Virus record (IMG/VR): IMGVR_UViG_3300044627_003120
DNA length: 64,000 bases
Strand: one strand, 5' to 3'
From: an uncultured virus (IMG/VR IMGVR_UViG_3300044627_003120)
Taxonomy: Duplodnaviria > Heunggongvirae > Uroviricota > Caudoviricetes
The notes under the pieces were generated by a model. It was not told the origin of the DNA. It searched no databases and saw only the letters and a program-made list of their open reading frames with translations. A program made the position numbers and the translations under genes. Positions 1-58,200 of this stretch are shown here, in pieces; position 1 is the first letter of the stretch; every line of letters starts with the position of its first letter.

Positions 1-907
1 CACGAGCAGAACGGTACCAATCAAGGCGTTCAGTTAGTGCATTGAAAGCACCCCAAGCATTACCAGCAATCATGCCGTTAAACTCGCCTGTGTAGATGTC
101 ATTGATAACATCAACCTTGTTTTCCCATTTCTTGAAAGCACCCTTAGAATCTTTTTCAGGCTTAGGGTATGCAGCAAGAATGATGTCGTTAAATTGCTTA
201 GCATTGATTTCTGTTTCAATCATAGCCTTAGCCATGAGGTCAAAAGAATCCATGTACTTATGAGCCATGCCAAGAGTCTCACGAGCAACGGCAACCTTAC
301 CAGAAGCGGTCTGAGTGTGGCGAATCTTGAAAGATTGCTTGACACCATTCTTTTTCTTAGTTGTGTTTAGTGCAAGGTTAAGAGTATTAGCGCACACAAC
401 ACGAACAGGTGTAATGCTTGCTTGAATAGCGATTGAGCCGTCATGTGATGTGTTGATAAGTAAATAAGTCTTTACCTTATCTGCAACACCGTTAGGGTCA
501 AGAACTGTCTCACGCTCTAATGCAAGTGCGCCAAATACTACACGACCACCCTTGATTGAGCCAGCGGTTTCCCAACGACCTCCACCGTCGAGAATGTTAT
601 CACCGAATGAAAATAAATCTTCATTCTGCATTACATGGTAACGCTCACCAACGACACCAAGAATGTCGGTCTGAGAGTTATCAGTAGGGTTAGTACGCAA
701 GACATACTGGTACGCCTTGTCGCTTGTAAGATGTGTAGGGGTTTCCAAATCTTCCAGACGAACATTCCAATTATTTAGATTGGCAGCAGCAAGCATTTCG
801 CTTGTTGTTTTTTCTTCTGTAAATACGGTACCCAATCCATGCCAAGCGGGTTCACGAAATGATGCGAATGAAGCCTTACCATTTTGTGTTTCGATTTCAT
901 GTGCCAT
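1..907 (-). CDS. DUF932 / TIGR03299 phage-plasmid family protein (3' end outside window)
   Basis: Manual translation from ATG at 907 (AAGGAG RBS): MAHEIETQNGKASFASFREPAWHGLGTV...WETAGSIKGGRVVFG...NTSHDGS...PVRVVCANTL; open to the window edge. Confidence 0.8.
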   Translation of the reverse strand, partial: MAHEIETQNGKASFASFREPAWHGLGTVFTEEKTTSEMLAAANLNNWNVRLEDLETPTHLTSDKAYQYVLRTNPTDNSQTDILGVVGERYHVMQNEDLFSFGDNILDGGGRWETAGSIKGGRVVFGALALERETVLDPNGVADKVKTYLLINTSHDGSIAIQASITPVRVVCANTLNLALNTTKKKNGVKQSFKIRHTQTASGKVAVARETLGMAHKYMDSFDLMAKAMIETEINAKQFNDIILAAYPKPEKDSKGAFKKWENKVDVINDIYTGEFNGMIAGNAWGAFNALTERLDWYRSAR

Positions 908-939
908 GAGTTTTCTCCTTTTTTGTTGTTGATTATTTA

Positions 940-961
940 AGTATAACAGGACGGGCTGACA
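940..961 (-). promoter_or_regulatory. TGTCAG-N10-TATACT promoter (PafBC/RecA-NDp-like), copy 1
   Basis: Minus strand TGTCAG CCCGTCCTGT TATACT upstream of the DUF932 gene. Confidence 0.7.
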
Positions 962-1009
962 AATGCAAATCGGGATAGTTAAACAAGGGCAAATCGGACA
1001 TTTTTTTAA

Positions 1010-1074
1010 TGTGATCGTAAACACATGTGATGTTGGTCATGTGGATAACCTGTGGATAACTTTTGCCCCCTAGG
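1010..1074. promoter_or_regulatory. Motif cluster: CRP-like box, two DnaA boxes, CCTAGG
   Basis: TGTGA-tcgtaa-ACACA 1010-1025; TGTGGATAA 1040-1048 and 1051-1059; CCTAGG 1069-1074. Confidence 0.6.
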
Positions 1075-1094
1075 AAATTTTTGAGGGAAGTGGG

Positions 1095-1122
1095 TGAGCA
1101 GTTTAAAAACATGCTCAGGTTT
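1095..1122 (-). ncRNA. Conserved H-type pseudoknot element, copy 1
   Basis: Minus strand AAAC-CTGAGCAT-GTTT-TTAAA-CTGCTCA. Confidence 0.6.
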
Positions 1123-1137
1123 ATTAGTAGCCCCCTA

Positions 1138-1554
1138 CTAAATATCTATTCTGTCAACGCTGGATGACAAATAAGTTACCTCTTCACCATATGATACAGA
1201 ATCAAAATCGATATCGTGAATTGCATTCTGTGCACTCTCTTCATCACGTGCATTGACTGTAATTGAATATTGAACTGTAACTTCTAATTCAAATTCTTTT
1301 GTTAACTCAAAGCCGCAAATGCTTGCAATCTCTTCTGCAGTGCTTTCATCAATGGTACCGTGCTCCATTGCTTCTAAGGTCCACTCTTGCATTTCGTTAC
1401 GCATACGGTTGCGCTCTGCAGCCTCGCCGTATGAGCGCTGAGTTACTGTTTGAATGTGCTTTTCTAATTCATCAATCCGTGCTTTGTTTTGAACAAGAGT
1501 AGTTTCTAAAAACTCTCGTGTCATGTAGTGATTGTCTATTACTGGTTGGTCCAT
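1138..1554 (-). CDS. Hypothetical early protein, coiled-coil N-terminus
   Basis: 138-aa ORF, AGAGG RBS, own promoter. Confidence 0.75.
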   Translation of the reverse strand: MDQPVIDNHYMTREFLETTLVQNKARIDELEKHIQTVTQRSYGEAAERNRMRNEMQEWTLEAMEHGTIDESTAEEIASICGFELTKEFELEVTVQYSITVNARDEESAQNAIHDIDFDSVSYGEEVTYLSSSVDRIDI

Positions 1555-1586
1555 GGGGGCCCTCTTTCTGTTTGTTGGTTAATTTA

Positions 1587-1608
1587 ATTATACTGGGTAC
1601 CGCTGACA
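1587..1608 (-). promoter_or_regulatory. TGTCAG-N10-TATAAT promoter, copy 2
   Basis: TGTCAG CGGTACCCAG TATAAT. Confidence 0.7.
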
Positions 1609-1691
1609 AATTAGGTGCCACTCCCCCAGGGGACTTTAGCCAAATTTATGGATTAGATCCATGATCTTGGATTGAACCAGGGGGAGAGGCG

Positions 1692-1719
1692 TGAGCAGTT
1701 TAGCGACATACTCAGGTCG
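1692..1719 (-). ncRNA. Pseudoknot element, copy 2
   Basis: CGAC-CTGAGTAT-GTCG-CTAAA-CTGCTCA (U-G wobble in stem 2). Confidence 0.6.
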
Positions 1720-1728
1720 TTTATCTAA

Positions 1729-2151
1729 TTAGAGATAACGAGATACCGCTTGATAAGTTGATGTGGAAACTGTTTCCTCATCTGTCATCTTGAGAATACG
1801 GATTGCGTTTTCCAATTCCTCTTTCATCTCATTGTATGAGTGGCGGTGTAGAACTTCGTAGTCCTTCTCAGGCTCTTTAGGAAAGTCTGACTCATTAACT
1901 GTTAAATCGAAATCAACATTAAGTGTCTTATTCCATGAGCGATAGTTTGTGCGGAAGTTTTCTGCCTTAGCAAAATTAGCCATAGCAAACTTTCCTACTT
2001 CTTTGCGCCACTTTTCTAAAGCCTTTTCGTGCTTTGCTTCGTTGGCTTCTTGTGAGGCATAGTCTGATTGCAACTTTGCAAGACGAGTCTCAAGTGCCTT
2101 GATTACCTTTGGTGTTGCTATCTTTACTGAGATTGCTTTCTGTCGTGCCAT
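1729..2151 (-). CDS. Hypothetical early protein
   Basis: 140-aa ORF, AAAGGA RBS. Confidence 0.75.
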   Translation of the reverse strand: MARQKAISVKIATPKVIKALETRLAKLQSDYASQEANEAKHEKALEKWRKEVGKFAMANFAKAENFRTNYRSWNKTLNVDFDLTVNESDFPKEPEKDYEVLHRHSYNEMKEELENAIRILKMTDEETVSTSTYQAVSRYL

Positions 2152-2185
2152 GTGGGTCTATTCCTTTACTGTTAGGGGGTTGGGT

Positions 2186-2213
2186 TGAGCAGTTTGTATT
2201 CATGCTCAGGAAT
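2186..2213 (-). ncRNA. Pseudoknot element, copy 3
   Basis: ATTC-CTGAGCAT-GAAT-ACAAA-CTGCTCA. Confidence 0.6.
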
Positions 2214-2224
2214 TACTAATTAGA

Positions 2225-2389
2225 TTACTTAGCCGTCCAAGTTGTGTAGCGGTGTGAGCCATTTACATCTAACTTAACACGAACATTTCCGTTAGCCTGT
2301 GGTTCGATTGCTACGATTGTGCCTGTGACCTTTGACTTCTGTGTTGTGTAGAGGTCGCCTACCTTGTATGTTGCTGTTGCTACTGACAT
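2225..2389 (-). CDS. Small hypothetical protein (SH3-like pattern YKVGD...GTIVAI)
   Basis: Start moved to ATG 2389, which follows an AAGGAG RBS and promoter copy 3. Confidence 0.7.
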   Translation of the reverse strand: MSVATATYKVGDLYTTQKSKVTGTIVAIEPQANGNVRVKLDVNGSHRYTTWTAK

Positions 2390-2417
2390 TTTTTCTCCTT
2401 TGTTGTTGTATGTATTA

Positions 2418-2439
2418 AGTATAACATTTCCTACTGACA
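2418..2439 (-). promoter_or_regulatory. TGTCAG-N10-TATACT promoter, copy 3
   Basis: TGTCAG TAGGAAATGT TATACT. Confidence 0.7.
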
Positions 2440-2499
2440 TTTATCAAGTTGATACCTGAATAATCTCACTATGTGGAATTGTTATTTTGTTATGTAATA

Positions 2500-2564
2500 A
2501 GTATAGCAAAAAATCTCATAAATCTCAAATCCTGCAAGGGTTTTTGGGTGTGACCTTAATCACA
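2500..2564 (-). promoter_or_regulatory. Sigma-A-type promoter with upstream CRP-like box
   Basis: TTGAGA-N17-TATACT (2528-2500); perfect TGTGA-ccttaa-TCACA at 2549-2564. Confidence 0.6.
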
Positions 2565-2622
2565 TCTTAAATAGTATGTTTAGACTTGACAAATCAAAAG
2601 TTTTGCCCCTAGGCGCTCCATT

Positions 2623-2691
2623 TCACAACGGTGCCGAAAACATAACAAATAAAAATATTGCAGTTAAAAATAAAATAATTACTTCGCCCAT
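2623..2691 (-). CDS. 22-aa hydrophobic mini-protein
   Basis: MGEVIILFLTAIFLFVMFSAPL, directly after the GP88-like gene. Confidence 0.4.
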   Translation of the reverse strand: MGEVIILFLTAIFLFVMFSAPL

Positions 2692-2697
2692 TAAATC

Positions 2698-3420
2698 TCA
2701 TTTCTTGGTTGCAGAAAAAATTATGTCACTCTTAGAGTATACACAAAGTGAGCAAGAAACGCAAGCCGAGCCAGCCGATGAGATAAGTGGAATTTGTTTA
2801 TTATTCTCAGGACACTTAGCAGCAGGTCGTCCTGTCATTTCTTTTACATCGGCTTGACCAATAGCAAAATTTTTAGCAAGGTATGCCATACGAACACCGC
2901 TATTAATTTTTAGATCAACGGCAGTTTTAACATTCTCGCTATCTGCAGAAAAGTATAAACTAAGATTAGCAATGTCCTTAAGAATAAGTGCAGCGCTCTT
3001 CACACGAGTGTATACCCAGAATTGAACATCCTCATGCTTATCGATAACTACTTTCCATGCATATGCATAGGTATCATTAAAGAAGTCTCCGTCCCAGTGG
3101 ATACGGAATAGCATGGGTGCGTTTTTCTTCATACAATCATTCTTGAAATCAACAATCATTTCATTAAGCAAGCGGACCATGGTCTCGCCGTCTGCGTCTT
3201 TAAGTAGGTCCCAGTTATGCAATAGGTTTACTTTAACGGAAGGGAAGATCTTTTCCAATTTGCCTGCATAGCAAACACTCTCGCAGACACTCGTTGCGCC
3301 AGGACATGAATAGTTTTTTCCTGCGGGTAATCCGAAAGTGTTAGCAATTGCGGCTTGCTTTCCATTTTTTGTGACAAGGTTAGCCACCTTTCTATCATTA
3401 GATCTTTTTAGTTTACTCAT
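2698..3420 (-). CDS. GP88 (gene product 88) family protein, radical-SAM-like Cys cluster
   Basis: CPGATSVCESVCYA, FRIHWDGDF, FWVYTR, C-terminal CP..CxxCxxC. Confidence 0.7.
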   Translation of the reverse strand: MSKLKRSNDRKVANLVTKNGKQAAIANTFGLPAGKNYSCPGATSVCESVCYAGKLEKIFPSVKVNLLHNWDLLKDADGETMVRLLNEMIVDFKNDCMKKNAPMLFRIHWDGDFFNDTYAYAWKVVIDKHEDVQFWVYTRVKSAALILKDIANLSLYFSADSENVKTAVDLKINSGVRMAYLAKNFAIGQADVKEMTGRPAAKCPENNKQIPLISSAGSACVSCSLCVYSKSDIIFSATKK

Positions 3421-3562
3421 GAGGGCCTCTTTCTTTCTTTAATTCTAACATAAGGGACTGACATTTTTTTCTATTGTATTTCTTTTTATTAGGTACGGCA
3501 GAGGCTGCATTGCTACGGCGTAGTTCCATAAGCCTGCGTAATTCCTCTTTATTCTTTTTCAT
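3413..3562 (-). CDS. 49-aa basic protein, probably leaderless
   Basis: MKKNKEELRRLMELRRSNAASAVPNKKKYNRKK...; ATG 6 nt after TTGACA-N17-TAAGAT (3597-3569). Confidence 0.55.
   Translation of the reverse strand: MKKNKEELRRLMELRRSNAASAVPNKKKYNRKKCQSLMLELKKERGPHE
3442..3463 (-). promoter_or_regulatory. TGTCAG-N10-TAGAAT promoter, copy 4
   Basis: TGTCAG TCCCTTATGT TAGAAT upstream of the GP88-like gene. Confidence 0.65.
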
Positions 3563-3697
3563 AAATTAATCTTAGCAGACTTGGGGAAAAATGTCAAATG
3601 CTACGTAAAGTGATCAATCTCACATTAAAAATAAAACGACACGCTAGGTAAATATCCTAGGCGATTTTGTGCAGGGAAGCACACAAAATCACTTTTA

Positions 3698-3937
3698 TTA
3701 TTCTTCTTCAGTAAAAACATACAACGGAATTAAATCATTGTATGCAAACTGTGTAACTTCTTTTTCACCAAACTCGTTTTGTGTTTGTATGTCATAGTTA
3801 TCTCCTGTTGAGTCACTCTCAATAAAAATAACTTCAACAATGTCATTATCAATCTTGATTAAATCACCAATCATGATTTGATCTGCCGTTAGATTATCAG
3901 CGTGTATCAATTCCATGCTTACCATTGTATCAGACAT
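3698..3937 (-). CDS. Hypothetical acidic protein
   Basis: 79-aa ORF coupled to its neighbour by TAATG overlap. Confidence 0.7.
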   Translation of the reverse strand: MSDTMVSMELIHADNLTADQIMIGDLIKIDNDIVEVIFIESDSTGDNYDIQTQNEFGEKEVTQFAYNDLIPLYVFTEEE

Positions 3938-4260
3938 TATTCTAACCCCAATCCTAATTCGTATCCGTTATCTTCTGCGCCATAAAAATCATCTTCATCT
4001 TGTGGCAACCAAAAATCTAAATGGTGTTGCTCAATTACTGCCCATGCTGGTGCATGACTCATGCCCTTATAGAATACTCCTTCTGGCATAGCAATAAATC
4101 GCATAGCATCATTATCATAGTATGCATCAATAGCATCAATGCAAGGCTGAACCATGCTTAGTGGTACGGGTGGATAGTGATTACCTTGTAAGTGATAAGC
4201 AATCTGAGTTTCTAAATCAAGTACGCTATCTTGTATTCCCAATGCTGTTACGCTTCCCAT
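3937..4260 (-). CDS. Hypothetical phage protein
   Basis: 107-aa ORF, HLQGNHYPPVP motif, TAATG overlaps. Confidence 0.75.
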   Translation of the reverse strand: MGSVTALGIQDSVLDLETQIAYHLQGNHYPPVPLSMVQPCIDAIDAYYDNDAMRFIAMPEGVFYKGMSHAPAWAVIEQHHLDFWLPQDEDDFYGAEDNGYELGLGLE

Positions 4261-4478
4261 TATCGTGTTGTTACCTTTCCCATGCGGTCAATTACTTTTG
4301 TATGCATTTTGCCTGACGGCTCTGATAAATTAATTGTTGAGTATTCGTTAGCAAAGCCGACATCAGTAAATTTTAGGTATGCTTGCACGGCAGTTAAAGC
4401 ATCTGAGTATCGACCAACCCAATGAGGCTTAGGGGCTGAGTCATAGGTTACTGTTATTGAGTATAGGTATTCGTTCAT
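4260..4478 (-). CDS. Hypothetical protein; homolog of the N-half of 32664-33119
   Basis: 72-aa ORF, DVGFANEY...EPSGKMHTKV. Confidence 0.75.
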   Translation of the reverse strand: MNEYLYSITVTYDSAPKPHWVGRYSDALTAVQAYLKFTDVGFANEYSTINLSEPSGKMHTKVIDRMGKVTTR

Positions 4479-4654
4479 TATGCGTTCTCCAATGTGTATT
4501 CGTTTAATTCGTTCTTAGCATACCATGCGGTGTATTCATTGTAAAGCATAACACCCTTGTTACACTCACAAAAATCTGTATCGTATTCGCCATTAGTGCT
4601 ACCCCAAAAGAGTACGCCTTCGTCATAGCAATCCATGCAATTCCATGTGTTCAT
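4478..4654 (-). CDS. 58-aa CxxC...CxC zinc-finger-like protein
   Basis: MNTWNCMDCYDEGVLFWGSTNGEYDTDFCECNKG...; fills the gap between coupled ORFs. Confidence 0.65.
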   Translation of the reverse strand: MNTWNCMDCYDEGVLFWGSTNGEYDTDFCECNKGVMLYNEYTAWYAKNELNEYTLENA

Positions 4655-4656
4655 TA

Positions 4657-4869
4657 TTATTCTCCTGTCTTTACTGCTAAATAGCGGTAAGTATCTTTTA
4701 AGTTAAGTGGTGCTGAGTAGTGGGGGCGTACTTGCACTCTGTATGTATCGCAATTTGCATACCATACATGATTTGTTTTTTCTGCATCAATGATTTCTCC
4801 CGTAAGTGTACGAGACTTATAAGTTTTTCCTACAAGTAGGTTTTCTATTGTATAGACATTTGCTGACAT
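4657..4869 (-). CDS. Hypothetical protein
   Basis: ORF with GAGG RBS before MSANVYT. Confidence 0.7.
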   Translation of the reverse strand: MSANVYTIENLLVGKTYKSRTLTGEIIDAEKTNHVWYANCDTYRVQVRPHYSAPLNLKDTYRYLAVKTGE

Positions 4870-4911
4870 GAGCAACCTCTTTCGTTTGTTTATTTACTTT
4901 ATTACTATGTA

Positions 4912-4933
4912 ATCCTATCATGGGGGTCTGACA
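4912..4933 (-). promoter_or_regulatory. TGTCAG-N10-TAGGAT promoter, copy 5
   Basis: TGTCAG ACCCCCATGA TAGGAT. Confidence 0.65.
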
Positions 4934-4981
4934 TTTATCAAATTAAAATCTTAAAATCTCAAAATGTGGACAGGTTTTGGG

Positions 4982-5057
4982 TGTGATTAATCTCACATCT
5001 TAAATGACCTGTGGATAAAGTGGTCTGACCTGTGGAAAACGGCCTAGATCGCCTAGG
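4982..5057. promoter_or_regulatory. Motif cluster: CRP-like box, DnaA boxes, CCTAGG
   Basis: TGTGA-ttaatc-TCACA 4982-4997; TGTGGATAA 5010-5018; TGTGGAAAA 5031-5039; CCTAGG 5052-5057. Confidence 0.6.
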
Positions 5058-5064
5058 AAAAATT

Positions 5065-5093
5065 TGAGCAGTTTTAAATCGTGCTCAGGATTT
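5065..5093 (-). ncRNA. Pseudoknot element, copy 4
   Basis: AAATC-CTGAGCAC-GATTT-AAAA-CTGCTCA. Confidence 0.6.
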
Positions 5094-5100
5094 TGTTTTT

Positions 5101-5295
5101 TTATTTTAGAGTTGCAAGAAATTTTGCATCATCAACGCAAGCATCATAGAATTTTTGTTCATCAAATCTTGGATTATCTGAAGCAAACCATTCGCTAAAT
5201 TCAAAAATTAAATTATCGAAATCGTGAGAGTCGATACTATCCGAAAATTTATTTAGAATTTTTGCAGTTTCTACATAGTCTTTACGAGTCATCAT
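5101..5295 (-). CDS. Hypothetical protein; homolog of the C-half of 32664-33119
   Basis: 64 aa, TRKDY...FASDNPRFDEQKF. Confidence 0.75.
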   Translation of the reverse strand: MMTRKDYVETAKILNKFSDSIDSHDFDNLIFEFSEWFASDNPRFDEQKFYDACVDDAKFLATLK

Positions 5296-5501
5296 TATTC
5301 TGCCACCTTTAGAATTGCATAAGAGCCACCTTCGTTAATTTTGTTAATTTCTGGAAGTAGCACAGGAACAAGTAGGTCCTTTAGCATTGACTCAAGCAAT
5401 TTAATTTGTGAGATTTCATCTAATTGCAAAAATCGCTGAGAGATTGGATGTGTTTCGTCAAATTCTGTAACGAAGTTTAGAGAGTGATTTACTTTTACCA
5501 T
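5295..5501 (-). CDS. Hypothetical protein
   Basis: 68-aa ORF, TAATG coupling. Confidence 0.65.
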   Translation of the reverse strand: MVKVNHSLNFVTEFDETHPISQRFLQLDEISQIKLLESMLKDLLVPVLLPEINKINEGGSYAILKVAE

Positions 5502-5520
5502 TGTTTTATTTCCTATTCTT

Positions 5521-5664
5521 TTAGTTGTTGTCTAATAAATTATCTTGAGCGATACCAAAATCGCAAGAGCAAGTTTCTACATCATAGTCAAAATCATTTC
5601 CAAAAAAGATTAGACCTGTTGAATTACATTCCTCGCAGGGAATTGTTAAGACGGAGTTTATCAT
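5521..5664 (-). CDS. 47-aa CxxC...CxC protein, paralog of 4478-4654
   Basis: MINSVLTIPCEECNSTGLIFFGNDFDYDVETCSCDFG... Confidence 0.6.
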   Translation of the reverse strand: MINSVLTIPCEECNSTGLIFFGNDFDYDVETCSCDFGIAQDNLLDNN

Positions 5665-5850
5665 TTATAGAACCGCCTTTCCTCTTAGTGTTCCGCTAAC
5701 GCCTAAAGCGTCACAGGATACTTTAACGGCAACGCCTACGGGTAATTGTGTAGGGTATGTTGAGATGAATTGAGCAACCGCACCTTTAGAGGCAAGGTTG
5801 ATTTTTTTAGTCGAACCGCTAAAGGTTTCGAGTGTTATAGTGTAAGTCAT
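5665..5850 (-). CDS. Hypothetical protein
   Basis: 61-aa ORF, AAAGGAAG RBS. Confidence 0.7.
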   Translation of the reverse strand: MTYTITLETFSGSTKKINLASKGAVAQFISTYPTQLPVGVAVKVSCDALGVSGTLRGKAVL

Positions 5851-5882
5851 TTATTGACTTCCTTTCTTTAATTGATAAGACT

Positions 5883-5904
5883 ATCCTATCATGGGGGGCT
5901 GACA
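5883..5904 (-). promoter_or_regulatory. TGTCAG-N10-TAGGAT promoter, copy 6
   Basis: TGTCAG CCCCCCATGA TAGGAT. Confidence 0.65.
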
Positions 5905-5911
5905 AATTGGG

Positions 5912-5969
5912 CACTTATTTGCTGAGGCTCATTGTGATACTCGTCACACTTATTCGCTCAGGCTCATTG
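5912..5969. repeat. 23-bp imperfect direct repeat flanking a perfect CRP-like box
   Basis: cacttatt(t/c)gct(g/c)aggctcattg at 5912 and 5947; TGTGA-tactcg-TCACA 5933-5948. Confidence 0.7.
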
Positions 5970-6000
5970 CTTATTTATCTTATTTAATTGTTATACTGCA

Positions 6001-6124
6001 AGTATAGCAAAAAAATCTCACAAAAGCAAATCGACACGCCGTAAATGGGGGGATAAATAGTGTGATCTTAACCACATAGGTTATCCACACCCCTGTGGAC
6101 GACACGCTAGGTAGATCGCCTAGG
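6001..6124. promoter_or_regulatory. Leftward sigma-A-type promoter plus CGACACGC x2, CRP-like box, DnaA box, CCTAGG
   Basis: TTGCTT-N17-TATACT (6029-6001); CGACACGC 6032 and 6100; TGTGA-N6-CCACA 6061; TTATCCACA 6081-6089; CCTAGG 6119. Confidence 0.6.
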
Positions 6125-6159
6125 AAAAAATCGCAGGTATTTATTCTGCGATCTTTTTT
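6125..6159. terminator. Probable intrinsic terminator, bidirectional
   Basis: A-run, atcgcagg...tctgcgat stem, T-run. Confidence 0.55.
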
Positions 6160-6160
6160 A

Positions 6161-6220
6161 TTAACTATGAATTGCAATAACAAAAGCAAAACAAGTAATT
6201 GCGATTAGAATAACTAACAT
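6161..6220 (-). CDS. 19-aa hydrophobic mini-protein
   Basis: MLVILIAITCFAFVIAIHS, GAGG RBS, TAATG coupling. Confidence 0.45.
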   Translation of the reverse strand: MLVILIAITCFAFVIAIHS

Positions 6221-6309
6221 TAGTTTTCCTCAATTTCATTTAGTAATTCCCAAAGTATTGGCTCTAATTCTTTAGAAACTAAATCTAATTTTTCTTGAAG
6301 TGTTTTCAT
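6220..6309 (-). CDS. 29-aa hypothetical protein
   Basis: MKTLQEKLDLVSKELEPILWELLNEIEEN, GAGG RBS, coupled. Confidence 0.55.
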   Translation of the reverse strand: MKTLQEKLDLVSKELEPILWELLNEIEEN

Positions 6310-6470
6310 TATGCAACCTCTTTTTCTTTTAGTATTCCAAGAATTAAATCTAATTGTTGTGTTGTGAGCAGTGCTGTTGCACAACCCCATGACCACGCAA
6401 GTGCCATGTCATCATAGTGTGTTTTAGCAAGAGCATTTATTTCTGCAATTATTTCGTTATTACTTTTCAT
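6309..6470 (-). CDS. 53-aa hypothetical protein
   Basis: MKSNNEIIAEINALAKTHYDDMALAWSWG..., coupled. Confidence 0.6.
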   Translation of the reverse strand: MKSNNEIIAEINALAKTHYDDMALAWSWGCATALLTTQQLDLILGILKEKEVA

Positions 6471-6608
6471 TTATGCAATTTCCAATTCGTTATAGTCAAT
6501 GACCTCAAAGTCATGTCGTTCCAATGGCATAGCCTTTAACCATGATAGGGCAGACTCAAAATCCTCAGCCTCAATAGTGACCATTAGGTCAAAGTTAAAT
6601 AGTGTCAT
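6471..6608 (-). CDS. 45-aa hypothetical protein
   Basis: MTLFNFDLMVTIEAEDFESA..., AGGAGG RBS. Confidence 0.6.
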   Translation of the reverse strand: MTLFNFDLMVTIEAEDFESALSWLKAMPLERHDFEVIDYNELEIA

Positions 6609-6772
6609 TACTTTACCTCCTTGTATAAAAAGTCCCAAGCCTTACGGCATAACACGATAGATTTGCAGTTATCGCAACAGATAACCCCATGAGGGTTAAG
6701 GTCTACATCATAGACATCAACGCTTGCTGATGTAGCCCCACATACTGAGGGGAGATTTACAAAGGTACTCAT
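6608..6772 (-). CDS. 54-aa Cys-containing protein
   Basis: MSTFVNLPSVCG...ICCDNCKS..., coupled. Confidence 0.6.
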   Translation of the reverse strand: MSTFVNLPSVCGATSASVDVYDVDLNPHGVICCDNCKSIVLCRKAWDFLYKEVK

Positions 6773-6969
6773 TTTCTAAGTCCTTCCTTTCCATAGGTAT
6801 TGATAAAATCGGTAAGAGGCATAACGCCTTTATAGTCTTTACATCTTGGGCAAAATCTATTCCACCCGTCAAATAGTGTTATGCAAAATGCACAAATGTT
6901 ATCCATAGCACATAAGCCTTGCTCATCTATAAATTGCATGGTATCTAAGAATTGATTAGTGTTATTCAT
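6769..6969 (-). CDS. Zinc-ribbon-like protein
   Basis: CAFC...CPRC. Confidence 0.65.
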   Translation of the reverse strand: MNNTNQFLDTMQFIDEQGLCAMDNICAFCITLFDGWNRFCPRCKDYKGVMPLTDFINTYGKEGLRK

Positions 6970-7142
6970 TTAGTCACATACCAATCTGTCCACATAGGGA
7001 ATTGCTCAGGGTCACTATCATAGTAGTAACGCTCAATGTTCTGCTCACAATTTTGGCAGAAGGTAAATTGCTCATCACCTATTTCGGAGATAGCGGAAAC
7101 CATAGGGTTATGGTCTTTACATAGTGTGTTTAGTGTAGTCAT
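6966..7142 (-). CDS. 58-aa CxxH...CxxC protein
   Basis: MTTLNTLCKDHNP...FCQNCEQNIE..., ATGA overlap. Confidence 0.6.
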   Translation of the reverse strand: MTTLNTLCKDHNPMVSAISEIGDEQFTFCQNCEQNIERYYYDSDPEQFPMWTDWYVTK

Positions 7143-7197
7143 TTTGACCTACCTTTCGTCAAGGGATTTCTTTACCCTTGTTTTTCTTTATACTGTA

Positions 7198-7352
7198 AGT
7201 GTAGCATGAGGGTCTGACAAATCGCAAGTCCAAAATGGTATCAATTCGGACATTGTGAGGTGTATCACAAGTGATAAAGGTCACATTTGTATGGTCATAA
7301 ATAACAATGACCATTTCTATCGGCGTGTCGACTTGACAAAAAACCGCCTAGG
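7198..7352 (-). promoter_or_regulatory. Promoter copy 7, tandem CRP-like boxes, GCGTGTCG, CCTAGG
   Basis: TGTCAG ACCCTCATGC TACACT (7219-7198); TGTGA-N6-TCACA 7254-7269; AGTGA-N6-TCACA 7270-7285; GCGTGTCG 7323; CCTAGG 7347. Confidence 0.65.
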
Positions 7353-7386
7353 CAATTTTGCAGGGGATCTGCAAAACTACTAACAA

Positions 7387-7500
7387 CTAACTAAGTGCAA
7401 TACCTAACACAACACACAATGCAACCGCAGTGAATGCGCTGATTAGTCCTGCTGCTGGATAGTCTTCTACCCAATCAATAAACATAGTGAATGGATTCAT
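7387..7500 (-). CDS. 37-aa single-TM mini-protein
   Basis: MNPFTMFIDWVEDYPAAGLISAFTAVALCVVLGIALS. Confidence 0.55.
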   Translation of the reverse strand: MNPFTMFIDWVEDYPAAGLISAFTAVALCVVLGIALS

Positions 7501-7646
7501 TAGTTTTCTTCTTTCGCTAATAGGTATTCGTTATTTAGGGGGCGAGAATTGTTTGAGAACATAGCCTCTACCATAGCCTTGTCTTTTATTGACTGAGCAG
7601 CACGGCGTTCCTGTTGCTCTTTTAGTATTCTATTATAAGTGTCCAT
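7500..7646 (-). CDS. 48-aa hypothetical protein
   Basis: MDTYNRILKEQQERRAAQS..., directly after promoter copy 8. Confidence 0.6.
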   Translation of the reverse strand: MDTYNRILKEQQERRAAQSIKDKAMVEAMFSNNSRPLNNEYLLAKEEN

Positions 7647-7683
7647 GTAGGGGGGTAACCTTTCTTGTTTTCGTTATGTTGCA

Positions 7684-7811
7684 AGTATAGCAGGGGGGAC
7701 TGACAAATTGCGGCGTATAGTGGGCGTGTCGTGAAACTATTTTATGTGATTTACAACACAAAAACTATCCACATAGCCTGTGGATAACTTTACCTAGGCA
7801 TTGGCGTGTCG
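7684..7811 (-). promoter_or_regulatory. Promoter copy 8, GCGTGTCG x2, CRP-like box, inverted DnaA boxes, CCTAGG
   Basis: TGTCAG TCCCCCCTGC TATACT (7705-7684); GCGTGTCG 7724 and 7804; TGTGA-N6-ACACA 7745; CTATCCACA 7765; TGTGGATAA 7779; CCTAGG 7793. Confidence 0.65.
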
Positions 7812-7939
7812 GATTATGTGCTCACTATATTTTTGTGATAGTATTTATATAAACACGTATCATACATCTGAACAAAATATTCAGATTTTAGGCTATTTGG
7901 GTTTTATAAAATTTTTCAGAATTATGCTATAATAAATTC

Positions 7940-8038
7940 ATGACTGAAGAATTAGACGAATATGGCTATGAAGGCGATAACTGCTGTGCTGGATGTACAT
8001 GCAAGATTGCTCATAGTTCAGTACCACCAGTAGAATAA
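7940..8038 (+). CDS. 32-aa CCxxCxC peptide, leaderless
   Basis: MTEELDEYGYEGDNCCAGCTCKIAHSSVPPVE; ATG 6 nt after TGCTATAAT. Confidence 0.5.
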   Translation: MTEELDEYGYEGDNCCAGCTCKIAHSSVPPVE

Positions 8039-8047
8039 TTTTTTTAA

Positions 8048-8722
8048 ATGAATGATTTATTTCTATTTAACTCACCTCCAAGATGTGGCAATGTGTTTTC
8101 TACATTTTTGTTTTCTTTATTTATTCATGGAAACACAAGAAAATGCACAGACGTAGAAAAATATTCAGATAAGACACAAAAACAAGCAGCATTCTTTCGT
8201 AACCCATATGACTCTTTGCCATCATACGTGCTAAAAGCAAGGGTAGATGTCGGAGCACCGATTGATAAAAACAATCCTGCTGATCTTGTTAACAACATAG
8301 AAGTTTTTGCAAAACAATATCTTGACACTATAAAGCAAGCAAAAGCAAACCAATCAAACATATACATTGGTAAGTCTGAAGATTTAATGGCAGATCCGAT
8401 TGGCACAATAAAAGATATTGCTTTATTTTTTAATATTAAAATACAGAATAATCATTTTTCTGACAACGAAGAACTTATTAAAGAAATTAAGAACAGAATG
8501 AACAACACAGAAAGAACCAGGGTAGATAAAAATGGGGAAACTATAGTTGAAACTCTTATGTCAGTTCATGATGGACATATGCCTAGAGAGAAAACAGAAG
8601 ATAGAATTTTTTTAGACAAACTTGTTCGAGAAACTGATTCAAATATTGTAACTCAATGTTATAATGAATATATATCGATTATATCTACAAATGCGAAAGA
8701 AGGAAAAAGATGGGAATACTAG
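8048..8722 (+). CDS. Sulfotransferase-like protein
   Basis: NSPPRCGN (5'-PSB-like), RNPYDSL (3'-PB-like), EDLMADP. Confidence 0.5.
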   Translation: MNDLFLFNSPPRCGNVFSTFLFSLFIHGNTRKCTDVEKYSDKTQKQAAFFRNPYDSLPSYVLKARVDVGAPIDKNNPADLVNNIEVFAKQYLDTIKQAKANQSNIYIGKSEDLMADPIGTIKDIALFFNIKIQNNHFSDNEELIKEIKNRMNNTERTRVDKNGETIVETLMSVHDGHMPREKTEDRIFLDKLVRETDSNIVTQCYNEYISIISTNAKEGKRWEY

Positions 8723-52227: not shown

Positions 52228-55200
52228 TTGGCAGATGTAAACTCTAATATAAATATTAATTTTAATACAACTGCCGCTCTCGCACAACTTCGTCAACTAC
52301 AGGCAGGCCTCAGTAAGTTTCATCAATCACTTGCTGAGGGCAACCTGGCTGCTGCAAATGCTCAAAAAGGTTTAAACGCACAACTTATTCAGTCTGTTGG
52401 AGCCACAGGACATTTTTCTGCAAGTCAAGTTAAAGTTGCAGGCAGCACACTTGCTTTTACATCCGCATTAGAAAAAAATAAACTATCTCTTCGTGAGTAC
52501 TACAGATACACAATGGCAGCAGCAACTGCCAATACTCGTGTTCTTGGCAGGGCTTTTGCAGCAGAAAGAGAAATTATTAACCGTGCTCGAAGAGATAGAG
52601 TAAAGGCCCTACAAGCACAATACATCCAGATGAACAAGTCCAATGCTGGATTTATGGATGCAATTCGAGTTATGCCAAAAAGCCTGCAGATGGCTAATGG
52701 AAAGTTTACAGAACTTGGAACAAGAATACAATACGCTGCACAAAGACAGCAGTTTCTTAATCAATTATTAAAGCAAGGCTCAACCCAACTTCTAAACTTC
52801 GGTAAGAATACTCAATGGGCAGGTCGCCAGTTAATGGTTGGTCTTACAATGCCACTTGCTTTGTTCGGCGCTGCAGCAGCGAAAGCGTTCAGAGAACTAG
52901 ATGCAGAGGTTATAAAGTTTCGTCGTGTCTATGGAGATGCTTTTACAAATGACGCAGAAGTTGAAGCAGCAGTCCAAAATATAAAAAAATTAGGAAGCGA
53001 ATATGTAAAGTATGGAGTCTCTGTTACAAAAACTATGGAGATGGCTGCAACTGCAGCAGCAGCAGGTTTTCAAGGGGATGCCTTATCTGCACAAGTTCAA
53101 ACAGCAACAAAGTTAGCAGTTCTTGGTCAGATAGAACAGCAGCAGGCACTTGAAACAACAATATCTTTGCAAAGCGCATTTGGAATCTCTAGCGATGAAC
53201 TTGCAAAGAAGATTGATTTCCTTAACGCAGTAGAAAACCAGACACTACTATCTATTGAAGACTTGACGATTGCAATTCCTAAAGCAGCACCAGTTGTAAA
53301 GCAACTTGGTGGAAATGTAGAAGATTTGGCCTTCTTCTTAACTGCTATGAAAGAAGGTGGAATTAATGCCTCAGAAGGTGCTAACGCATTAAAGTCTGGT
53401 CTTGCTTCATTAATTAATCCATCTGAAAAATCAGCAAAGTTTCTTGGTAAATTAGGCATCAACATAAAGGGACTTGTTGAGGCAAACAAGGGAGACATCA
53501 AGGGAACCGTAGTTGGATTTGCTAGAGCGTTAGACGAACTTGATCCACTAAATCGTGCAAGAGCAATTGAACAGTTGTTTGGTAAGTTTCAGTTTGCACG
53601 TTTGTCAACACTGTTTCAGAATGTAACAAAAGACGGATCTCAAGCATCAAGAGCATTTAAGTTAGCAGGTGCATCAGTAGAAGAATTAGCAATTCTATCC
53701 GAAAGAGAAATGAAGAAGATAGAAGATTCAACTGGTGTTAAGTTTCAAGCAGCATTAGAAAACATTAAAAAAGAAATAATGCCATTAGGAAAAGCATTCC
53801 TAGAGGCCTTGACTCCAGTAGTTAAGTTTTTCTCAGGGCTACTTGAAAAGTTTAATGGTCTTGGAGATAATACAAAAAAGGTTATTGCAATAATTGTTGC
53901 AGCAGTTGCAGGGCTTGGACCAATCCTGCTTATGACATTTGGTCTTCTTATGAATGGTGTTGCAAATGTTATTAAATTGTTTGCACTGCTTCGTGGAGGA
54001 ATTGCCAAGTTAAACGGACAAACAAGTGTTATGGGTGCAGGATTCAACTATATGACACAAGAGCAGATTGAAAATGCTGCATCGTCTCAACAACTTCACC
54101 AGACACACACAAGATTGATAGAAGTTTTCAATGTTGAAAAAGCATCTGTAAATGCTCTTGCCTCATCTTATAACTCACTAAGCACACAGATGAGAGCAAT
54201 GGCTACTGCCAACCCATCATTATTTGCAGGTGGAGCACCAGGTGCAGCCCGTGCAGTAAGAGGTTTGCCACCAGTTAAAAAGTACAAAGAAGGTATTTTA
54301 AGCGTTCCAGGTCCAAAGGGTGCAGGAGATGTTGTTCCAGCAATGCTTTCTCCAGGAGAAGCAGTTATTCCTACAGATACAACAAACAAATATAGAGGTC
54401 TTATAAGTGCAATGTTTAAAGACAAGGTTCCAGGATTTATGGCTGGAAGACTTCCTGGCGGACCAGGCAGAGGAATACCCCTATCTGATGGACCCGCAGC
54501 AGTTAGAAAAGCACAGCAAGCAAAGTATAGAAGACAAAACGATGCAAGACAAGGATGGAATGAACCTCATCCAGAAGCACCCAAGGGTCCAGTATTTGTT
54601 GGAATGCCAGTTAGTGCAGACAAGGCATCACAGTCTAGACAAATACTAGACAAGATATCAGAGCAGGCCAGTCTTGGAAGATTTGGCACCATGCCAGCGT
54701 CAAACTTTGGAACAAAACTTCAAGGCTTTAAGGGTTATAGTTTTCCTGAGCGTGGAATTGGCGGGGTATACAGAAAGCCTAACGGCAAGATCGTAGTAGT
54801 AAAGCCAACAATAGATGAGAAGACTGCATTAGCAGAAGTTCGCATGGCTGAGATAGAGGCTGCTAGAGGAATGGTAGTTCCAAAACAAACTATTAGAACA
54901 ATGATAGACCCAACAGATCCTACAGGACAAAGAAAATTTATTGTACTTGAGTCTCCTTACGATCCAAGATTTGCAAACATGGATGGAAAATTTAGAAAGA
55001 CTGACATGGTTAAGCAGTTAGTTGGATCATTACTGCGTGGAGACAAAGATTTACAAAAATCAAATGTATCTGGAAATAGGGTACCAGATGTAAGCAATGC
55101 TGGAGTATTTGATAGAGCATCTGGTTTTAGAGACTACGCTGAAAATATGCCAAGTTTTAGAGAGCAGGCAATGGTTAATCTCCTTGGTGTTAAGGGTGGA

Positions 55201-58200
55201 GCAAGAAAAGATTTTGCACTAGCAACAGCACCAATCGCAGCAAAGATGACCCCAAAGCAATATGACGATGAAATTAAGGGAGAGATTAATAGAAGCATTC
55301 CTATAGTGGAAAAAGTTATTAAGTCTTGGGATCGTGACTTACTTCCAGAGGAAAAAATTGTTTATAACAATATGCTTGAAAGACTTAAGGCTGGCGCAAA
55401 AGTAGAATGGGATGAATTCCAGCCAATCCATGCTCGTGCTGGACAGGATGTTATAAAAGCAAAAAAGGGTGTTAATTCAGACGCAACGCCTTCTGAAACT
55501 AAAAAACAACAATCGCTATATGAAATGGCTGCTCTGCGTGATAAATCAAAAACACAAATTGATAAACTTGTTAAACAATTAAATCAAGATATAGAAAATA
55601 CATTAAAAGAATTAAAAAATACAAACCCAGCACAATATAAAAAAGCAATGGCGCTATTAGAAAAATCTGGAGTTACTCCAAAAGCAGATGGCTCCATAAA
55701 CTTTAAAGAGTCTAAAGTTTATTCAGACTTTATAGAAAAAAATTTATTTTATAAAGATGGAGCATTTCACACGGCCAAGGCTATAGAAAAAGGCCAAAGC
55801 CCAACAACTTCTGCAAAAACTTATGATGCTATAAAAAATCAGATATTGTATAGAATGGGTGCTGCTCCAAAACCTGGTAAAGAAACATTTAGCAATAAAC
55901 CATTTACTCCAGGTAGACTGCACGAAGACCTAACATCAACAACTCAATCTGGTGGCTGGAGAGCAAATATTGATCCAAAGAGTGATTTGTACAAGGCCCT
56001 AGATGCCGCAGAGAAAGATCATAAAGCAAGAAATGTTCAAAATCCAAAGAATGTTGTTTTAAATAAATTAAGAACTCAAATGCTTGCAGATGGCTATACT
56101 GTAAAACAAATTGATGCCATGTTGAGAACAGAGTTGTCACATCTTTCAAAAACTGGAGAGGCTGGCTTGGGTCCAGAAAAATGGAAGAGTGGTTTTGCTA
56201 AGTTTGATTTGCGATTAATTAATAGTTATGTAAACCCAGGAGGCAAGCCAGGGAAGCCAATTGAAAATCCAAGACTAGCAAAGATTTTGAATTGGGATGC
56301 TAGAAATGGCAATGTGTTGTTTAATCCAACACAAACAGCAGAATTAAAAAAGGCTTTAGAGTTTATGAAAACAGGAGCACACCCTGTAACTGAAGCCCAA
56401 GCAAGACTAGTTCGTGCAGCAGCAGAAGCACAAGTTCGTGCAGATGAACATTTAGCAAAATACAAAAAGGAAAACAACGGCGCAAAGCCAAAGGGTTTCC
56501 CAGACCTTGGTTCTGTAAAACAGGCTAAGGCAGTTTCTCTGCTTCTTAGAGAAAGACTTGGCGGTGGATACTATCAAGGAACTCCTACTATATATCGCCT
56601 TGGACCAGGCTCAGTTCTAGCACAACCAGGAGAATACTTAGCAGATTTAGAAAACAGAACAGCAGATAAACTTTCTGTTGGCAATACTCAATCAAGACCA
56701 ATGGGCGCATCGCCATCAACAGGGAAAACAAGTGATAACTTAACTGTTGAAGAAACTCAAACAAAGAGAGTAGTTACTAAAGACCAAGCCCGTAAGGGTG
56801 GATTTACGATGCGTTCTAAGTCTACTGGAGATTCAAGTGTTAAATTAACTCCTTATCAAAGACAAGAACTTAAAAAGATTGCAACCAAATATCCAAACTT
56901 GAGCGAAACTCAATTAATGGATACGTTAAGAAGAAAACTAAAGGCTGACGAAAATATAATAAAGTCAAAAGAAAAGGAAGGTGCATCAGCAGCAAAGGCT
57001 GCACGACGTGCAGAACAACTTCCAAAGCAACAGGCTGCTCAACAGGCTAGATTAGACAGAATCGAAAGAGACAGACAAACAAGAATTATTCAGGCATCTA
57101 AAGATCAAGATAAAGCAAACAGGATGAATCGTGCAATTGACAGCAAGAAGCAAAGAATGCTTCGACAAGAAAAGGTTGGTAGATGGTCTGGTGGAGCATC
57201 TATGGCCCTTGGAACTGCTGGTATGGGTCTTATGATGGCTGGACAGCAAGGGGCGGGTATGGCTGCAATGGGTGCATCTGCAGTTGCTGGTATGGCACCA
57301 ATGCTTGCTGGTATGTCTAGTTTTGGATTAGCATTAACAGCACTTGTAACAGTTGGTGGTGGTCTATTCATATTAGACAAAATGGCAAAGAAGGCAGCAG
57401 AAAGCCAGTCAAAATTTGTTGATAAAGTCACGGCAACAACTGAGCAAATGTCTGCAGTCGGAGCAATAACAGACAAAGTTGGAGCCAGCGAGTTATATAA
57501 AAGAAAAAGACAGCAGGGTACTGGCAATAGATTTACTGCAGGATTTGAAAGAGGTAAAGAGCAATTTGGAGAAACATTCATATCCTCTGAGGTTGGCAAG
57601 ACAGTATATGAATCATTTAAGAAAAATTTAACTGCTGGAGGAATTGCATCTGCAAAGCAAATATCTTTACAGTTAGCAGCATATGTTTCTGATGGTGTTA
57701 TGTCAGCAGAACAGGCTCACAGCGTAGCAAGTCAAATAGGAATAGAATTAAATAACTCTACATTGACATCTCAGATTAGTGGAAACCTTTTAGAACTAAT
57801 TGGACCAGAAGGACAAGACCTTAAGACTGACCCACTAAATGTTAGAGTTAATCTAGTAAGAGAACAAGGAAAGATTAATGAAGATGTTGTAAAGGGTATG
57901 CAGGATGCTATTGGACAAGATTACCAATGGTGGAATCCAGCGAAATTTTTTGCTCCAGTATTTACAGAATCAGCAGGAGAAAAAGCAGCAGCAACTACTG
58001 CAGCACTAGGAGTTTCATCATTAGAATTAGCACAGGCACAGCAAGACTCTTTGTCTAAATACTACGATACACAAATTGAGGTATTAAGAAAACAAAAAGA
58101 GATTACATCTGATAAAGCAAAACAGAAAAAAATAGATGATGAGATTGCGGCTTTAGAAGGTAAGAAAAAGGATGGCTTAAGTTCTTTAAGAAATGAATCA

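What the first reader, a model, noticed from the sequence alone, without database searches (positions are those of the whole stretch)
1095..5093. Four copies of a covarying H-type RNA pseudoknot just after stop codons
Seen: minus-strand consensus [P1]-CUGAGYAY-[P1']-N(1-2)AAA-CUGCUCA at 1095, 1692, 2186 and 5065. P1 differs in each copy but always pairs (AAAC/GUUU, CGAC/GUCG, AUUC/GAAU, AAAUC/GAUUU). The loop UGAGYA pairs with the 3' UGCUCA. One copy has a U-G wobble that only works on the transcribed strand. Each lies 7-15 nt after a stop codon and has no U-tract. Inference: a structured RNA such as a nuclease block, processing or antitermination signal, readthrough stimulator, or small-ligand/protein aptamer. 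I cannot assign it to a named family.
Basis: partly seen in the sequence, partly recalled or inferred. Interest (0 to 1): 0.78.

Follow-up and report, generated by a model that had tools for sequence, protein, structure and literature searches.

The report
Coremin-like RNA knots after phage genes
Four copies of a tiny knotted RNA fold sit just behind gene ends in this phage; many unrelated phages carry the same fold, whose core matches a plant-virus RNA that stops enzymes chewing RNA from its front end, so it probably shields the RNA that follows it, though nobody has tested this in bacteria.

Summary
Confirmed: four sense-strand, 28-29-nt H-type pseudoknots 7-15 nt behind stop codons. Both stems covary across unrelated phages. 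No Rfam 15 family matches. The conserved core (C-G closing pair, loop C…A, spacer AAACU) is the mutationally essential core of the coremin Xrn1-resistant RNA of eukaryotic RNA viruses. Canonical coremins also occur in DNA phages, and this 8-nt-loop form occurs in a dicistro-like RNA virus. It lacks coremin's loop G and second hairpin, so it is a variant, not a member. Best reading (0.5): a 5'-facing barrier shielding downstream RNA from RNase J or RNase E scanning. It was found in 16 of 980 sampled genomes of RNase J phyla and 0 of 760 without, but exceptions exist. Rivals: 3' cap (two copies precede hammerheads; three of four window copies have no near downstream gene) and ribosome insulator (57 of 314 copies sit at one minimal stop distance). 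Function is untested. This scan noted the family before on at least 24 other genomes.

The parts
1095..1122 (-). Pseudoknot copy 1 (P1 AAAC/GUUU, loop CUGAGCAU, spacer ..AAAC, P2 UGAGCA/UGCUCA); 15 nt after a UAG UAG double stop, 187 nt before the next ATG
1692..1719 (-). Pseudoknot copy 2 (P1 CGAC/GUCG, U-G pair in P2); 9 nt after UAA, 137 nt before the next ATG
2186..2213 (-). Pseudoknot copy 3 (P1 AUUC/GAAU); inside an operon, 11 nt after UAA and 34 nt before the next ATG, with no promoter-like site between
5065..5093 (-). Pseudoknot copy 4 (P1 AAAUC/GAUUU); 7 nt after UAA, followed by a short U run, 195 nt before the next ATG
1138..1554 (-). 138-aa ORF upstream of copy 1; no PHROG match. 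Relatives keep a knot behind it in 4 of 7 distinct loci (loci were fetched by the motif, so enriched)
1729..2151 (-). 140-aa ORF between copies 3 and 2; no PHROG match. Relatives keep a knot behind it in 17 of 20 distinct loci, with changed P1
2225..2389 (-). About 54-aa ORF upstream of copy 3; no PHROG match. Homologs and paralogs are followed by a knot in 16 of 28 loci
5101..5295 (-). 64-aa ORF upstream of copy 4 (weak phrog_19432 match). Knot behind homologs in 2 of 7 loci
907..1094 (-). Context: intergenic promoter/operator module behind copy 1 (CCTAGG, two DnaA-like boxes, CRP-like site, promoter-like repeat). A similar module lies behind copy 4 at about 4870-5064
   Evidence: the names DnaA box and CRP site are recalled consensus labels

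Best explanation
Each copy folds in the transcript into a compact H-type pseudoknot: a 3-5-bp P1, a one-base L1 (C), a 5-6-bp P2, and an AAAC spacer that probably packs against P1. It is a Watson-Crick, 8-nt-loop variant of the coremin fold and acts as a protein-free barrier facing 5'. After the upstream message is cut or decapped, RNase J (or RNase E scanning, in hosts without RNase J) moves 5'->3' and stops at the knot. The downstream cistron, tRNA or non-coding remainder then survives with a defined 5' end. The knot sits as close behind the stop codon as a terminating ribosome allows without melting it. Shown here: the fold by covariation, sense-strand intergenic placement, sharing of the essential coremin core, and a continuum of loop sizes across phages and RNA viruses. 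Inferred: tertiary packing, nuclease resistance, direction of protection, and which enzyme is blocked.
For: (1) With the core left free, 90 of 115 distinct hits had at least 6 of 8 core bases (binomial expectation under 1). Among those 90: loop C 90, penultimate loop A 90, spacer A 90, 90 and 88, spacer C 64, U 63. In coremin the C-G closing pair, loop C and A, and spacer A16-A17-C18-U19 are essential for stalling Xrn1 (PMC6546385; PMC10520033). (2) Short-loop scan: 9 of 17 four-base loops fit YGAD, 0 of 7 five-base loops fit, and 40 of 65 six-base loops fit YGNNAD. This is the published pattern, including the non-functional five-base loop. Such hits flank RdRp or coat genes in 11 of 38 loci checked and phage scaffold, head, repressor or cyanophage genes in 7. 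(3) The 8-base-loop form lies just behind an RdRp stop and upstream of a Cripavirus IRES in L302. (4) It precedes scaffold or head genes, or sits in the head operon just ahead of them, in phages D6E, phig1e and DW2 (DW2 ORF42 taken as scaffold from its position), where the downstream gene needs the higher output. (5) A tRNA lies within 40 nt downstream for 24 of 360 copies and upstream for 5; several of these have no upstream ORF. (6) Sampled genomes: Bacillota 8 of 380, Actinomycetota 5 of 300, Cyanobacteriota 3 of 300, against Gammaproteobacteria 0 of 380 and Bacteroidota 0 of 380 (Fisher p 1.3e-4). RNase J was found in 41 of 41 Bacillota, 0 of 41 Gammaproteobacteria and 0 of 41 Bacteroidota. 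(7) The 3'-terminal P2 pair is not under pairing selection (59% paired against 54% shuffled), so the conserved face is the 5' one. (8) Precedent: a flaviviral xrRNA blocks RNase J1 in vitro (PMC5760640), and the guanidine-III pseudoknot blocks RNase E scanning (as reviewed in PMC12186494).
Against: Coremin needs G at loop position 2 and a second hairpin (hp2) to stall Xrn1. Here position 2 is U in 86 of 90 copies, and downstream folding is no better than shuffled (-1.72 against -1.55 kcal/mol over 358 copies). Known frameshift pseudoknots of this size do not stall Xrn1 (PMC10321173). Three of four window copies have no gene within 137 nt downstream, and the next gene has its own promoter-like site. 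84 of 320 copies have a close stop but no close downstream start or tRNA. In L174 two copies are each followed by a hammerhead that cuts 5 nt downstream, which makes 5' shielding pointless there. Copies occur in E. coli phage flopper, crAss-like cr7_1 and Vibrio phages. Only 3 of 7 motif-bearing genomes tested had RNase J over the cut-off (several are MAGs). The phylum contrast rests on five lineages and one P1 class, and RNase J in Actinomycetota and Cyanobacteriota was checked only in one genome each plus tool controls. No RNA ends could be mapped.
Confidence: 0.5

Rival explanations
1. 3' end cap: the knot protects the upstream message from 3'->5' exonucleases after termination, RNase P cleavage of a following tRNA, or ribozyme cleavage.
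For: A same-strand stop lies within 40 nt upstream of 52 of 80 copies, against 1 of 46 chance hits. L174 has two ORF-stop / knot / hammerhead units with the cut 5 nt after the knot. 23 of the 24 close downstream tRNAs start 1-13 nt after the knot. Three window copies end transcription units, and in some relatives a plain hairpin plus promoter stands in the same place. It needs no RNase J.
Against: The outermost P2 pair is not conserved as a pair, and the short-loop phage forms have almost no P2. Stop anchoring is shared with RNA-virus coremins, whose block is 5'->3'. Copies between tRNAs or before tRNAs without an upstream ORF (L373, L380, L390, L473), placement before scaffold genes, and the phylum bias are not predicted.
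Confidence: 0.22
2. Ribosome insulator: the knot presses against the mRNA entry channel of the terminating ribosome and stops post-termination scanning or re-initiation, protecting what folds or initiates downstream.
For: 57 of 314 copies with an upstream stop have exactly 9 nt between stop and loop C, and only 14 lie closer (one search gives 57 of 193 within 24 nt, 6 closer). Coremin stalls scanning ribosomes and stimulates frameshifting, and the frameshift screen was run in E. coli (PMC10520033, PMC10321173). It works in any host and fits the hammerhead and tRNA neighbours.
Against: The 9-nt floor is equally explained by the need to stay outside the ribosome. The spike was not corrected for related phages. 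Most copies lie further away, including all four window copies (12-19 nt). 70 of 320 have a close downstream feature but no close stop.
Confidence: 0.14
3. Binding site for a host or phage factor, or a block to Rho, that lets transcription run through (antitermination or processing signal).
For: Conserved unpaired bases could be a recognition surface. Most copies lack a U tract (98 of 360 have one; no control computed) and often lie inside operons.
Against: The same core occurs in phages of many phyla, in a Methanobrevibacter genome and in eukaryotic RNA viruses, so no common protein partner is plausible. I did not search for a co-occurring phage protein.
Confidence: 0.09
4. Readthrough stimulator, riboswitch, self-cleaving ribozyme, or a DNA palindrome bound by a dimeric protein.
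For: The spacing resembles recoding pseudoknots (recalled). The two P2 arms form an inverted repeat in DNA. The knot is adjacent to tRNAs and ribozymes.
Against: 157 of 221 stops are UAA and 111 of 221 frames close within 9 codons. The flanking genes are unrelated. P2 sequence varies freely while pairing is kept, G-U outnumbers A-C 83 to 35 on the sense strand, and P1 covaries, none of which fits a DNA site. No Rfam ribozyme or riboswitch matches. Where cleavage is needed, a separate hammerhead is present.
Confidence: 0.05

Closest known systems
Coremin motif (xrRNA-C) of beny-, cucumo-, umbra-, hypo- and other eukaryotic RNA viruses (PMC6546385, PMC10520033)
   Same: 3-5-bp first hairpin with a C-G closing pair; loop begins with C and has A in the penultimate position; spacer of 2-3 free bases then AAACU; position just after a stop codon in a UTR or intergenic region; loop can be enlarged in the middle.
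   Different: 8-base loop with U, not G, at position 2; a canonical 5-6-bp P2; no second hairpin; found in DNA phages and prophages; resistance untested.
Watson-Crick coremin (xrRNA-WCC; Sanxia picorna-like virus 5; PMC10321173)
   Same: Canonical loop-spacer pseudoknot stem on the same hp1 and spacer scaffold; starts about 8 nt into the 3' UTR.
   Different: It has a 4-base loop, a 3-bp second stem in another register and an essential G as L1, and it needs hp2 for Xrn1 resistance.
Guanidine-III riboswitch pseudoknot as an obstacle to RNase E scanning (seen only as reviewed in PMC12186494)
   Same: A compact bacterial pseudoknot that protects downstream RNA from a 5'-entering nuclease.
   Different: Ligand-dependent and tied to particular genes; no Rfam match to this motif.
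tmRNA pk1
   Same: One tmRNA (L224) has a pk1 that matches the window's P2 and A-rich spacer.
   Different: 9-base loop, embedded in tmRNA; a single case, probably convergent.
STAXI motif (RF01728; PMC2864571) and the T4 gene 32 leader pseudoknot (mentioned in PMC10690425)
   Same: Small pseudoknots of mobile DNA.
   Different: STAXI is tandem with UUCG loops in Enterobacteriales and was not matched. The gene 32 knot is a single autoregulatory site.

Membership tests
Coremin xrRNA-C | hp1 of 3-5 bp with C-G (or U-A) loop-closing pair | tested here: met
   C-G in 130 of 134 aligned copies, G-C 3, U-A 1; all four window copies C-G
Coremin xrRNA-C | Loop starts with Y and has A in the penultimate position | tested here: met
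   C 90 of 90 and A 90 of 90 when left free
Coremin xrRNA-C | G at loop position 2 (YG..AD) | tested here: not met
   U in 86 of 90; U in all four window copies. Met by other, short-loop phage copies
Coremin xrRNA-C | Spacer A16-A17-C18-U19 | tested here: met
   All four window copies. 57 of 90 free-core hits match all 8 core bases; about a quarter form an AAAAG subclass
Coremin xrRNA-C | A20 after the spacer CU | tested here: not met
   G in all four window copies; the base pairs in P2 and varies
Coremin xrRNA-C | Second hairpin hp2 directly downstream | tested here: not met
   358 copies fold at -1.72 against -1.55 shuffled. RNA-virus coremins: 12 of 12 at or below -2. DNA-phage short-loop copies: 4 of 15
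Coremin xrRNA-C | Stalls a 5'->3' exoribonuclease | not testable with these tools
   Only assembled contigs were available for RNA runs
xrRNA-WCC | 4-base loop with G as L1 and a 3-bp second stem | tested here: not met
   8-base loop, C as L1, 5-6-bp P2
Any Rfam 15 family (STAXI, ToxI, riboswitches, ribozymes) | Covariance-model match over the motif | tested here: not met
   No match over a copy; only the tmRNA model covers the pk1 look-alike of L224
Intrinsic terminator | G+C-rich hairpin followed by a U tract | tested here: not met
   None of the four copies listed by the terminator scan; U run after 1 of 4 window copies and 98 of 360 overall

The most novel reading that the evidence does not exclude
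Coremin is the eukaryotic-virus branch of a much larger family of 20-30-nt RNA barriers used by bacteriophages. Phages scatter them behind stop codons to set 5' ends and relative mRNA levels inside operons by stopping RNase J or RNase E scanning. These would be natural exoribonuclease-resistant RNAs in bacteria, and their canonical 8-base-loop form would reveal the unsolved coremin fold.
Probability: 0.45. Interest if true: 0.85.

Novelty: new variant of a known kind. Interest (0 to 1): 0.66.

Why it matters
The papers read place coremin only in RNA viruses of eukaryotes and state that its structure is unsolved. A large, strongly covarying phage family with the same core supplies the missing comparative evidence for its pseudoknot and a well-paired version to crystallise. 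If it blocks RNase J or RNase E scanning, it is a general way for phages to tune gene output within an operon (for example scaffold and capsid over portal). It would also be a 28-base portable mRNA stabiliser for Gram-positive and cyanobacterial engineering. Cultured phages on laboratory hosts carry it, so it can be tested directly.

Tried and rejected
STAXI was considered from memory, then rejected from the paper text and Rfam scans (the literature search returned only psychology papers). A type III antitoxin (ToxI/CptI) mimic was considered from recall only: the copies are dispersed, not tandem, and no Rfam ToxI match appeared. RNA end mapping failed: all 8 runs offered were contigs with small shares, and the 4 laid show only relatives' pieces and no ends, so no claim of expression or habitat is made. 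No whole genome is held for the window; the nearest record G001 gave 1 raw match with a mismatched look. The GTDB pattern scan was mostly chance: 37 of 118 distinct hits had P1 of 3 bp or more, against 127 of 133 viral hits; the rest served as controls. Loops of 9-12 bases were mostly unpaired chance hits with a few bulged variants (that output was cut). In one search I scored Bacillota as 9 of 380; G247 pairs only 3 of 5 in P2, so one search uses 8. Bacillota and Actinomycetota rows were scored by eye, the other three groups by script. The seed genome of each sample was left out. A search for published 5'-end maps of processed late phage transcripts found nothing usable. Literature searches for the motif or a phage xrRNA found no description. 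The library lacks most subscription journals. In PMC10690425 only 3 of 6 held supplements could be searched and 3 more files were unreadable, so the motif may be among its 10,006 unnamed candidates. No covariance model was built and R-scape was not available.
Full report
Setting. The window is a tailed-phage fragment, 38% G+C. Structural genes lie on the plus strand, with a major capsid protein 44% identical to Streptomyces phage capsids. A block of short minus-strand genes fills 1-7,700. An actinobacterial host is an inference from that similarity. No whole genome is held and the window has no tRNA.

Observation. The pattern occurs four times, all on the minus (coding) strand, against 0.00 expected. 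The copies lie 15, 9, 11 and 7 nt behind stop codons and 187, 137, 34 and 195 nt before the next start. One copy has a short U run behind it.

The fold is real RNA. On 134 aligned copies, 91.5% of cells pair, the covariation score is 0.393 against 0.123 shuffled, and slid partners score below 0.1. That alignment was selected for P1 pairing, so I ran scans that fixed P1 and left P2 free. In these, 99 of 122 and 88 of 120 distinct hits paired at 4 or 5 of 5 free positions, with many compensatory changes. Per pair, over 209 distinct cores, the four inner pairs exceed all 1,000 shuffles and the outermost pair does not (0.59 against 0.54). G-U outnumbers A-C 83 to 35 on the sense strand. Fixing both stems and freeing the core gave a bimodal set: 90 of 115 hits carried at least 6 of 8 core bases. 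About a quarter of those read AAAAG in place of AAACU.

Where it sits. Among 80 copies with long flanks (76 viral plus the 4 window copies), 52 had a same-strand stop within 40 nt upstream and 33 a start within 50 nt downstream; among 46 chance hits 1 had such a stop. In a set of 360 distinct viral copies, 57 of the 314 with an upstream stop had exactly 9 nt between the stop and the loop C, and 14 were closer. Starts peaked 15-39 nt downstream. tRNAs lay within 40 nt downstream of 24 copies and upstream of 5. Of 320 copies with both flanks, 109 had a close stop and a close downstream feature, 84 the stop only, 70 the downstream feature only, and 57 neither. ORFs were called mechanically and related phages were not down-weighted. 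Cultured carriers include cyanophages S-EIVl and S-SM2, Mycobacterium phage Labelle, Staphylococcus phage DW2, Lactobacillus phage phig1e, D6E, crAss-like cr7_1 and E. coli phage flopper, all intergenic and sense to their neighbours. A Vibrio phage copy overlaps a short ORF annotated on the other strand.

Comparison with known RNA. No Rfam 15 family covers a copy. The core matches the coremin motif. I read parts 1-4 of 6 of PMC10520033 and of PMC10321173, and part 2 of 4 of PMC6546385; figures were not visible. These papers give as essential for stalling Xrn1: the C-G closing pair, a loop YG(N)nAD, spacer A16-A20, and a second hairpin. They report tolerated 7- and 8-base loops and a Watson-Crick variant, and place all examples in eukaryotic RNA viruses. 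A loop-size scan of IMG/VR reproduced their rule: 9 of 17 four-base loops, 0 of 7 five-base loops, 40 of 65 six-base loops and 3 of 22 seven-base loops fit, and 47 of the 49 fitting four- and six-base loops were followed by A. Of 38 loci checked with Pfam, 11 short-loop loci were RNA viruses and 7 carried phage scaffold, head, repressor or cyanophage genes; the rest were unassigned or less clear. One is Lactobacillus prophage Lj928. Conversely, L302 carries the window's 8-base-loop form between an RdRp stop and a Cripavirus IRES. The window's form fails three coremin tests: loop G, A20 and hp2. It works like coremin by inference but is not filed as a member. A plausible, untested reading is that the long P2 replaces hp2. 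PMC12397905 (passages) uses 'class 3' for a different, larger plant-virus xrRNA.

Direction of action. For a 5'-facing barrier: the conserved face is P1 and its spacer while the 3' terminal pair is free; copies precede tRNAs without an upstream ORF and precede scaffold genes; and the motif tracks RNase J at phylum level. With one P1 class, it was found in 8 of 380 Bacillota, 5 of 300 Actinomycetota and 3 of 300 Cyanobacteriota genomes, and in none of 380 Gammaproteobacteria or 380 Bacteroidota. RNase J was present in 41 of 41, 0 of 41 and 0 of 41 sampled Bacillota, Gammaproteobacteria and Bacteroidota. Passages of PMC5760640 and PMC8374639 show that xrRNAs can block RNase J1, and a review, PMC12186494, reports a pseudoknot blocking RNase E scanning (primary paper not seen). 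Against: five lineages are few; only 3 of 7 motif-bearing genomes tested had RNase J; E. coli, Vibrio and crAss-like phages carry copies; three window copies face promoter modules, not genes; and L174 has two stop / knot / hammerhead units in which cleavage leaves the knot at the 3' end of the upstream RNA. The 9-nt spike fits either exclusion from the ribosome or a working contact with it. I weigh these as 0.5 for a 5' shield, 0.22 for a 3' cap, 0.14 for a ribosome insulator, 0.09 for a factor site and 0.05 for the rest. One stable knot could serve more than one role.

Novelty. Searches found no description of this motif or of coremin in phages. Passages of PMC2864571, PMC5737381, PMC10690425, PMC12191101 and bioRxiv 10.64898/2026.09.22.753630 do not describe it. 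The alignment archives of PMC10690425 could not be searched and may hold it unnamed. Earlier AI notes of this scan report the same family on at least 24 other genomes (read after my coremin lead); they split between 5' shield and 3' cap and are not independent evidence. A sequence look-up and a second word look-up returned nothing.

Verdict. Real, widespread and not in Rfam 15; a new variant of a known kind; function untested; interest 0.66.

Noticed in passing
window 900-8100: Nine CRP-like TGTGA-N6-TCACA palindromes, six DnaA-like boxes and seven CCTAGG sites cluster before the early promoters, against 2, 2 and 1 in the other 56 kb. The repeated order CCTAGG, DnaA box, CRP site, promoter suggests host regulators or a replication origin region. 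The labels are recalled consensus names.
   Followed up: partly
window 5910-5970 (-): Behind a promoter-like site lies a short non-coding stretch with a near-direct repeat flanking a perfect CRP-like palindrome (5933-5948); possibly a small RNA or operator.
   Followed up: no
window 52228-63999 (+): Tape-measure-like ORF of at least 3,924 aa with apparent inserted domains, running off the window.
   Followed up: no
L174 2179-2524 (-): Two consecutive units of ORF stop, knot and type III hammerhead, on a contig binned in a Polynucleobacter MAG.
   Followed up: partly
L302 91-430 (-): Dicistro-like RNA virus contig with the 8-base-loop knot between the RdRp stop and the intergenic IRES. L566 and L581 have six-base-loop coremins just after RdRp stops.
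   Followed up: partly
L224 249-600 (+): A tmRNA whose pk1 matches the window's motif except for a 9-base loop.
   Followed up: partly
L761, L776, L780 and others: An AAAAG-spacer subclass, about 24 of 90 core-bearing hits, with the same stems.
   Followed up: no
L006, L018, L019, L027, L039, L040, L055, L073: In loci related to this phage a knot directly precedes a tRNA-Asp gene; the window has no tRNA.
   Followed up: partly
L253 and L390 (crAss-like): Tandem pair of knots, in L390 followed 6 nt later by a tRNA-Ile gene.
   Followed up: no
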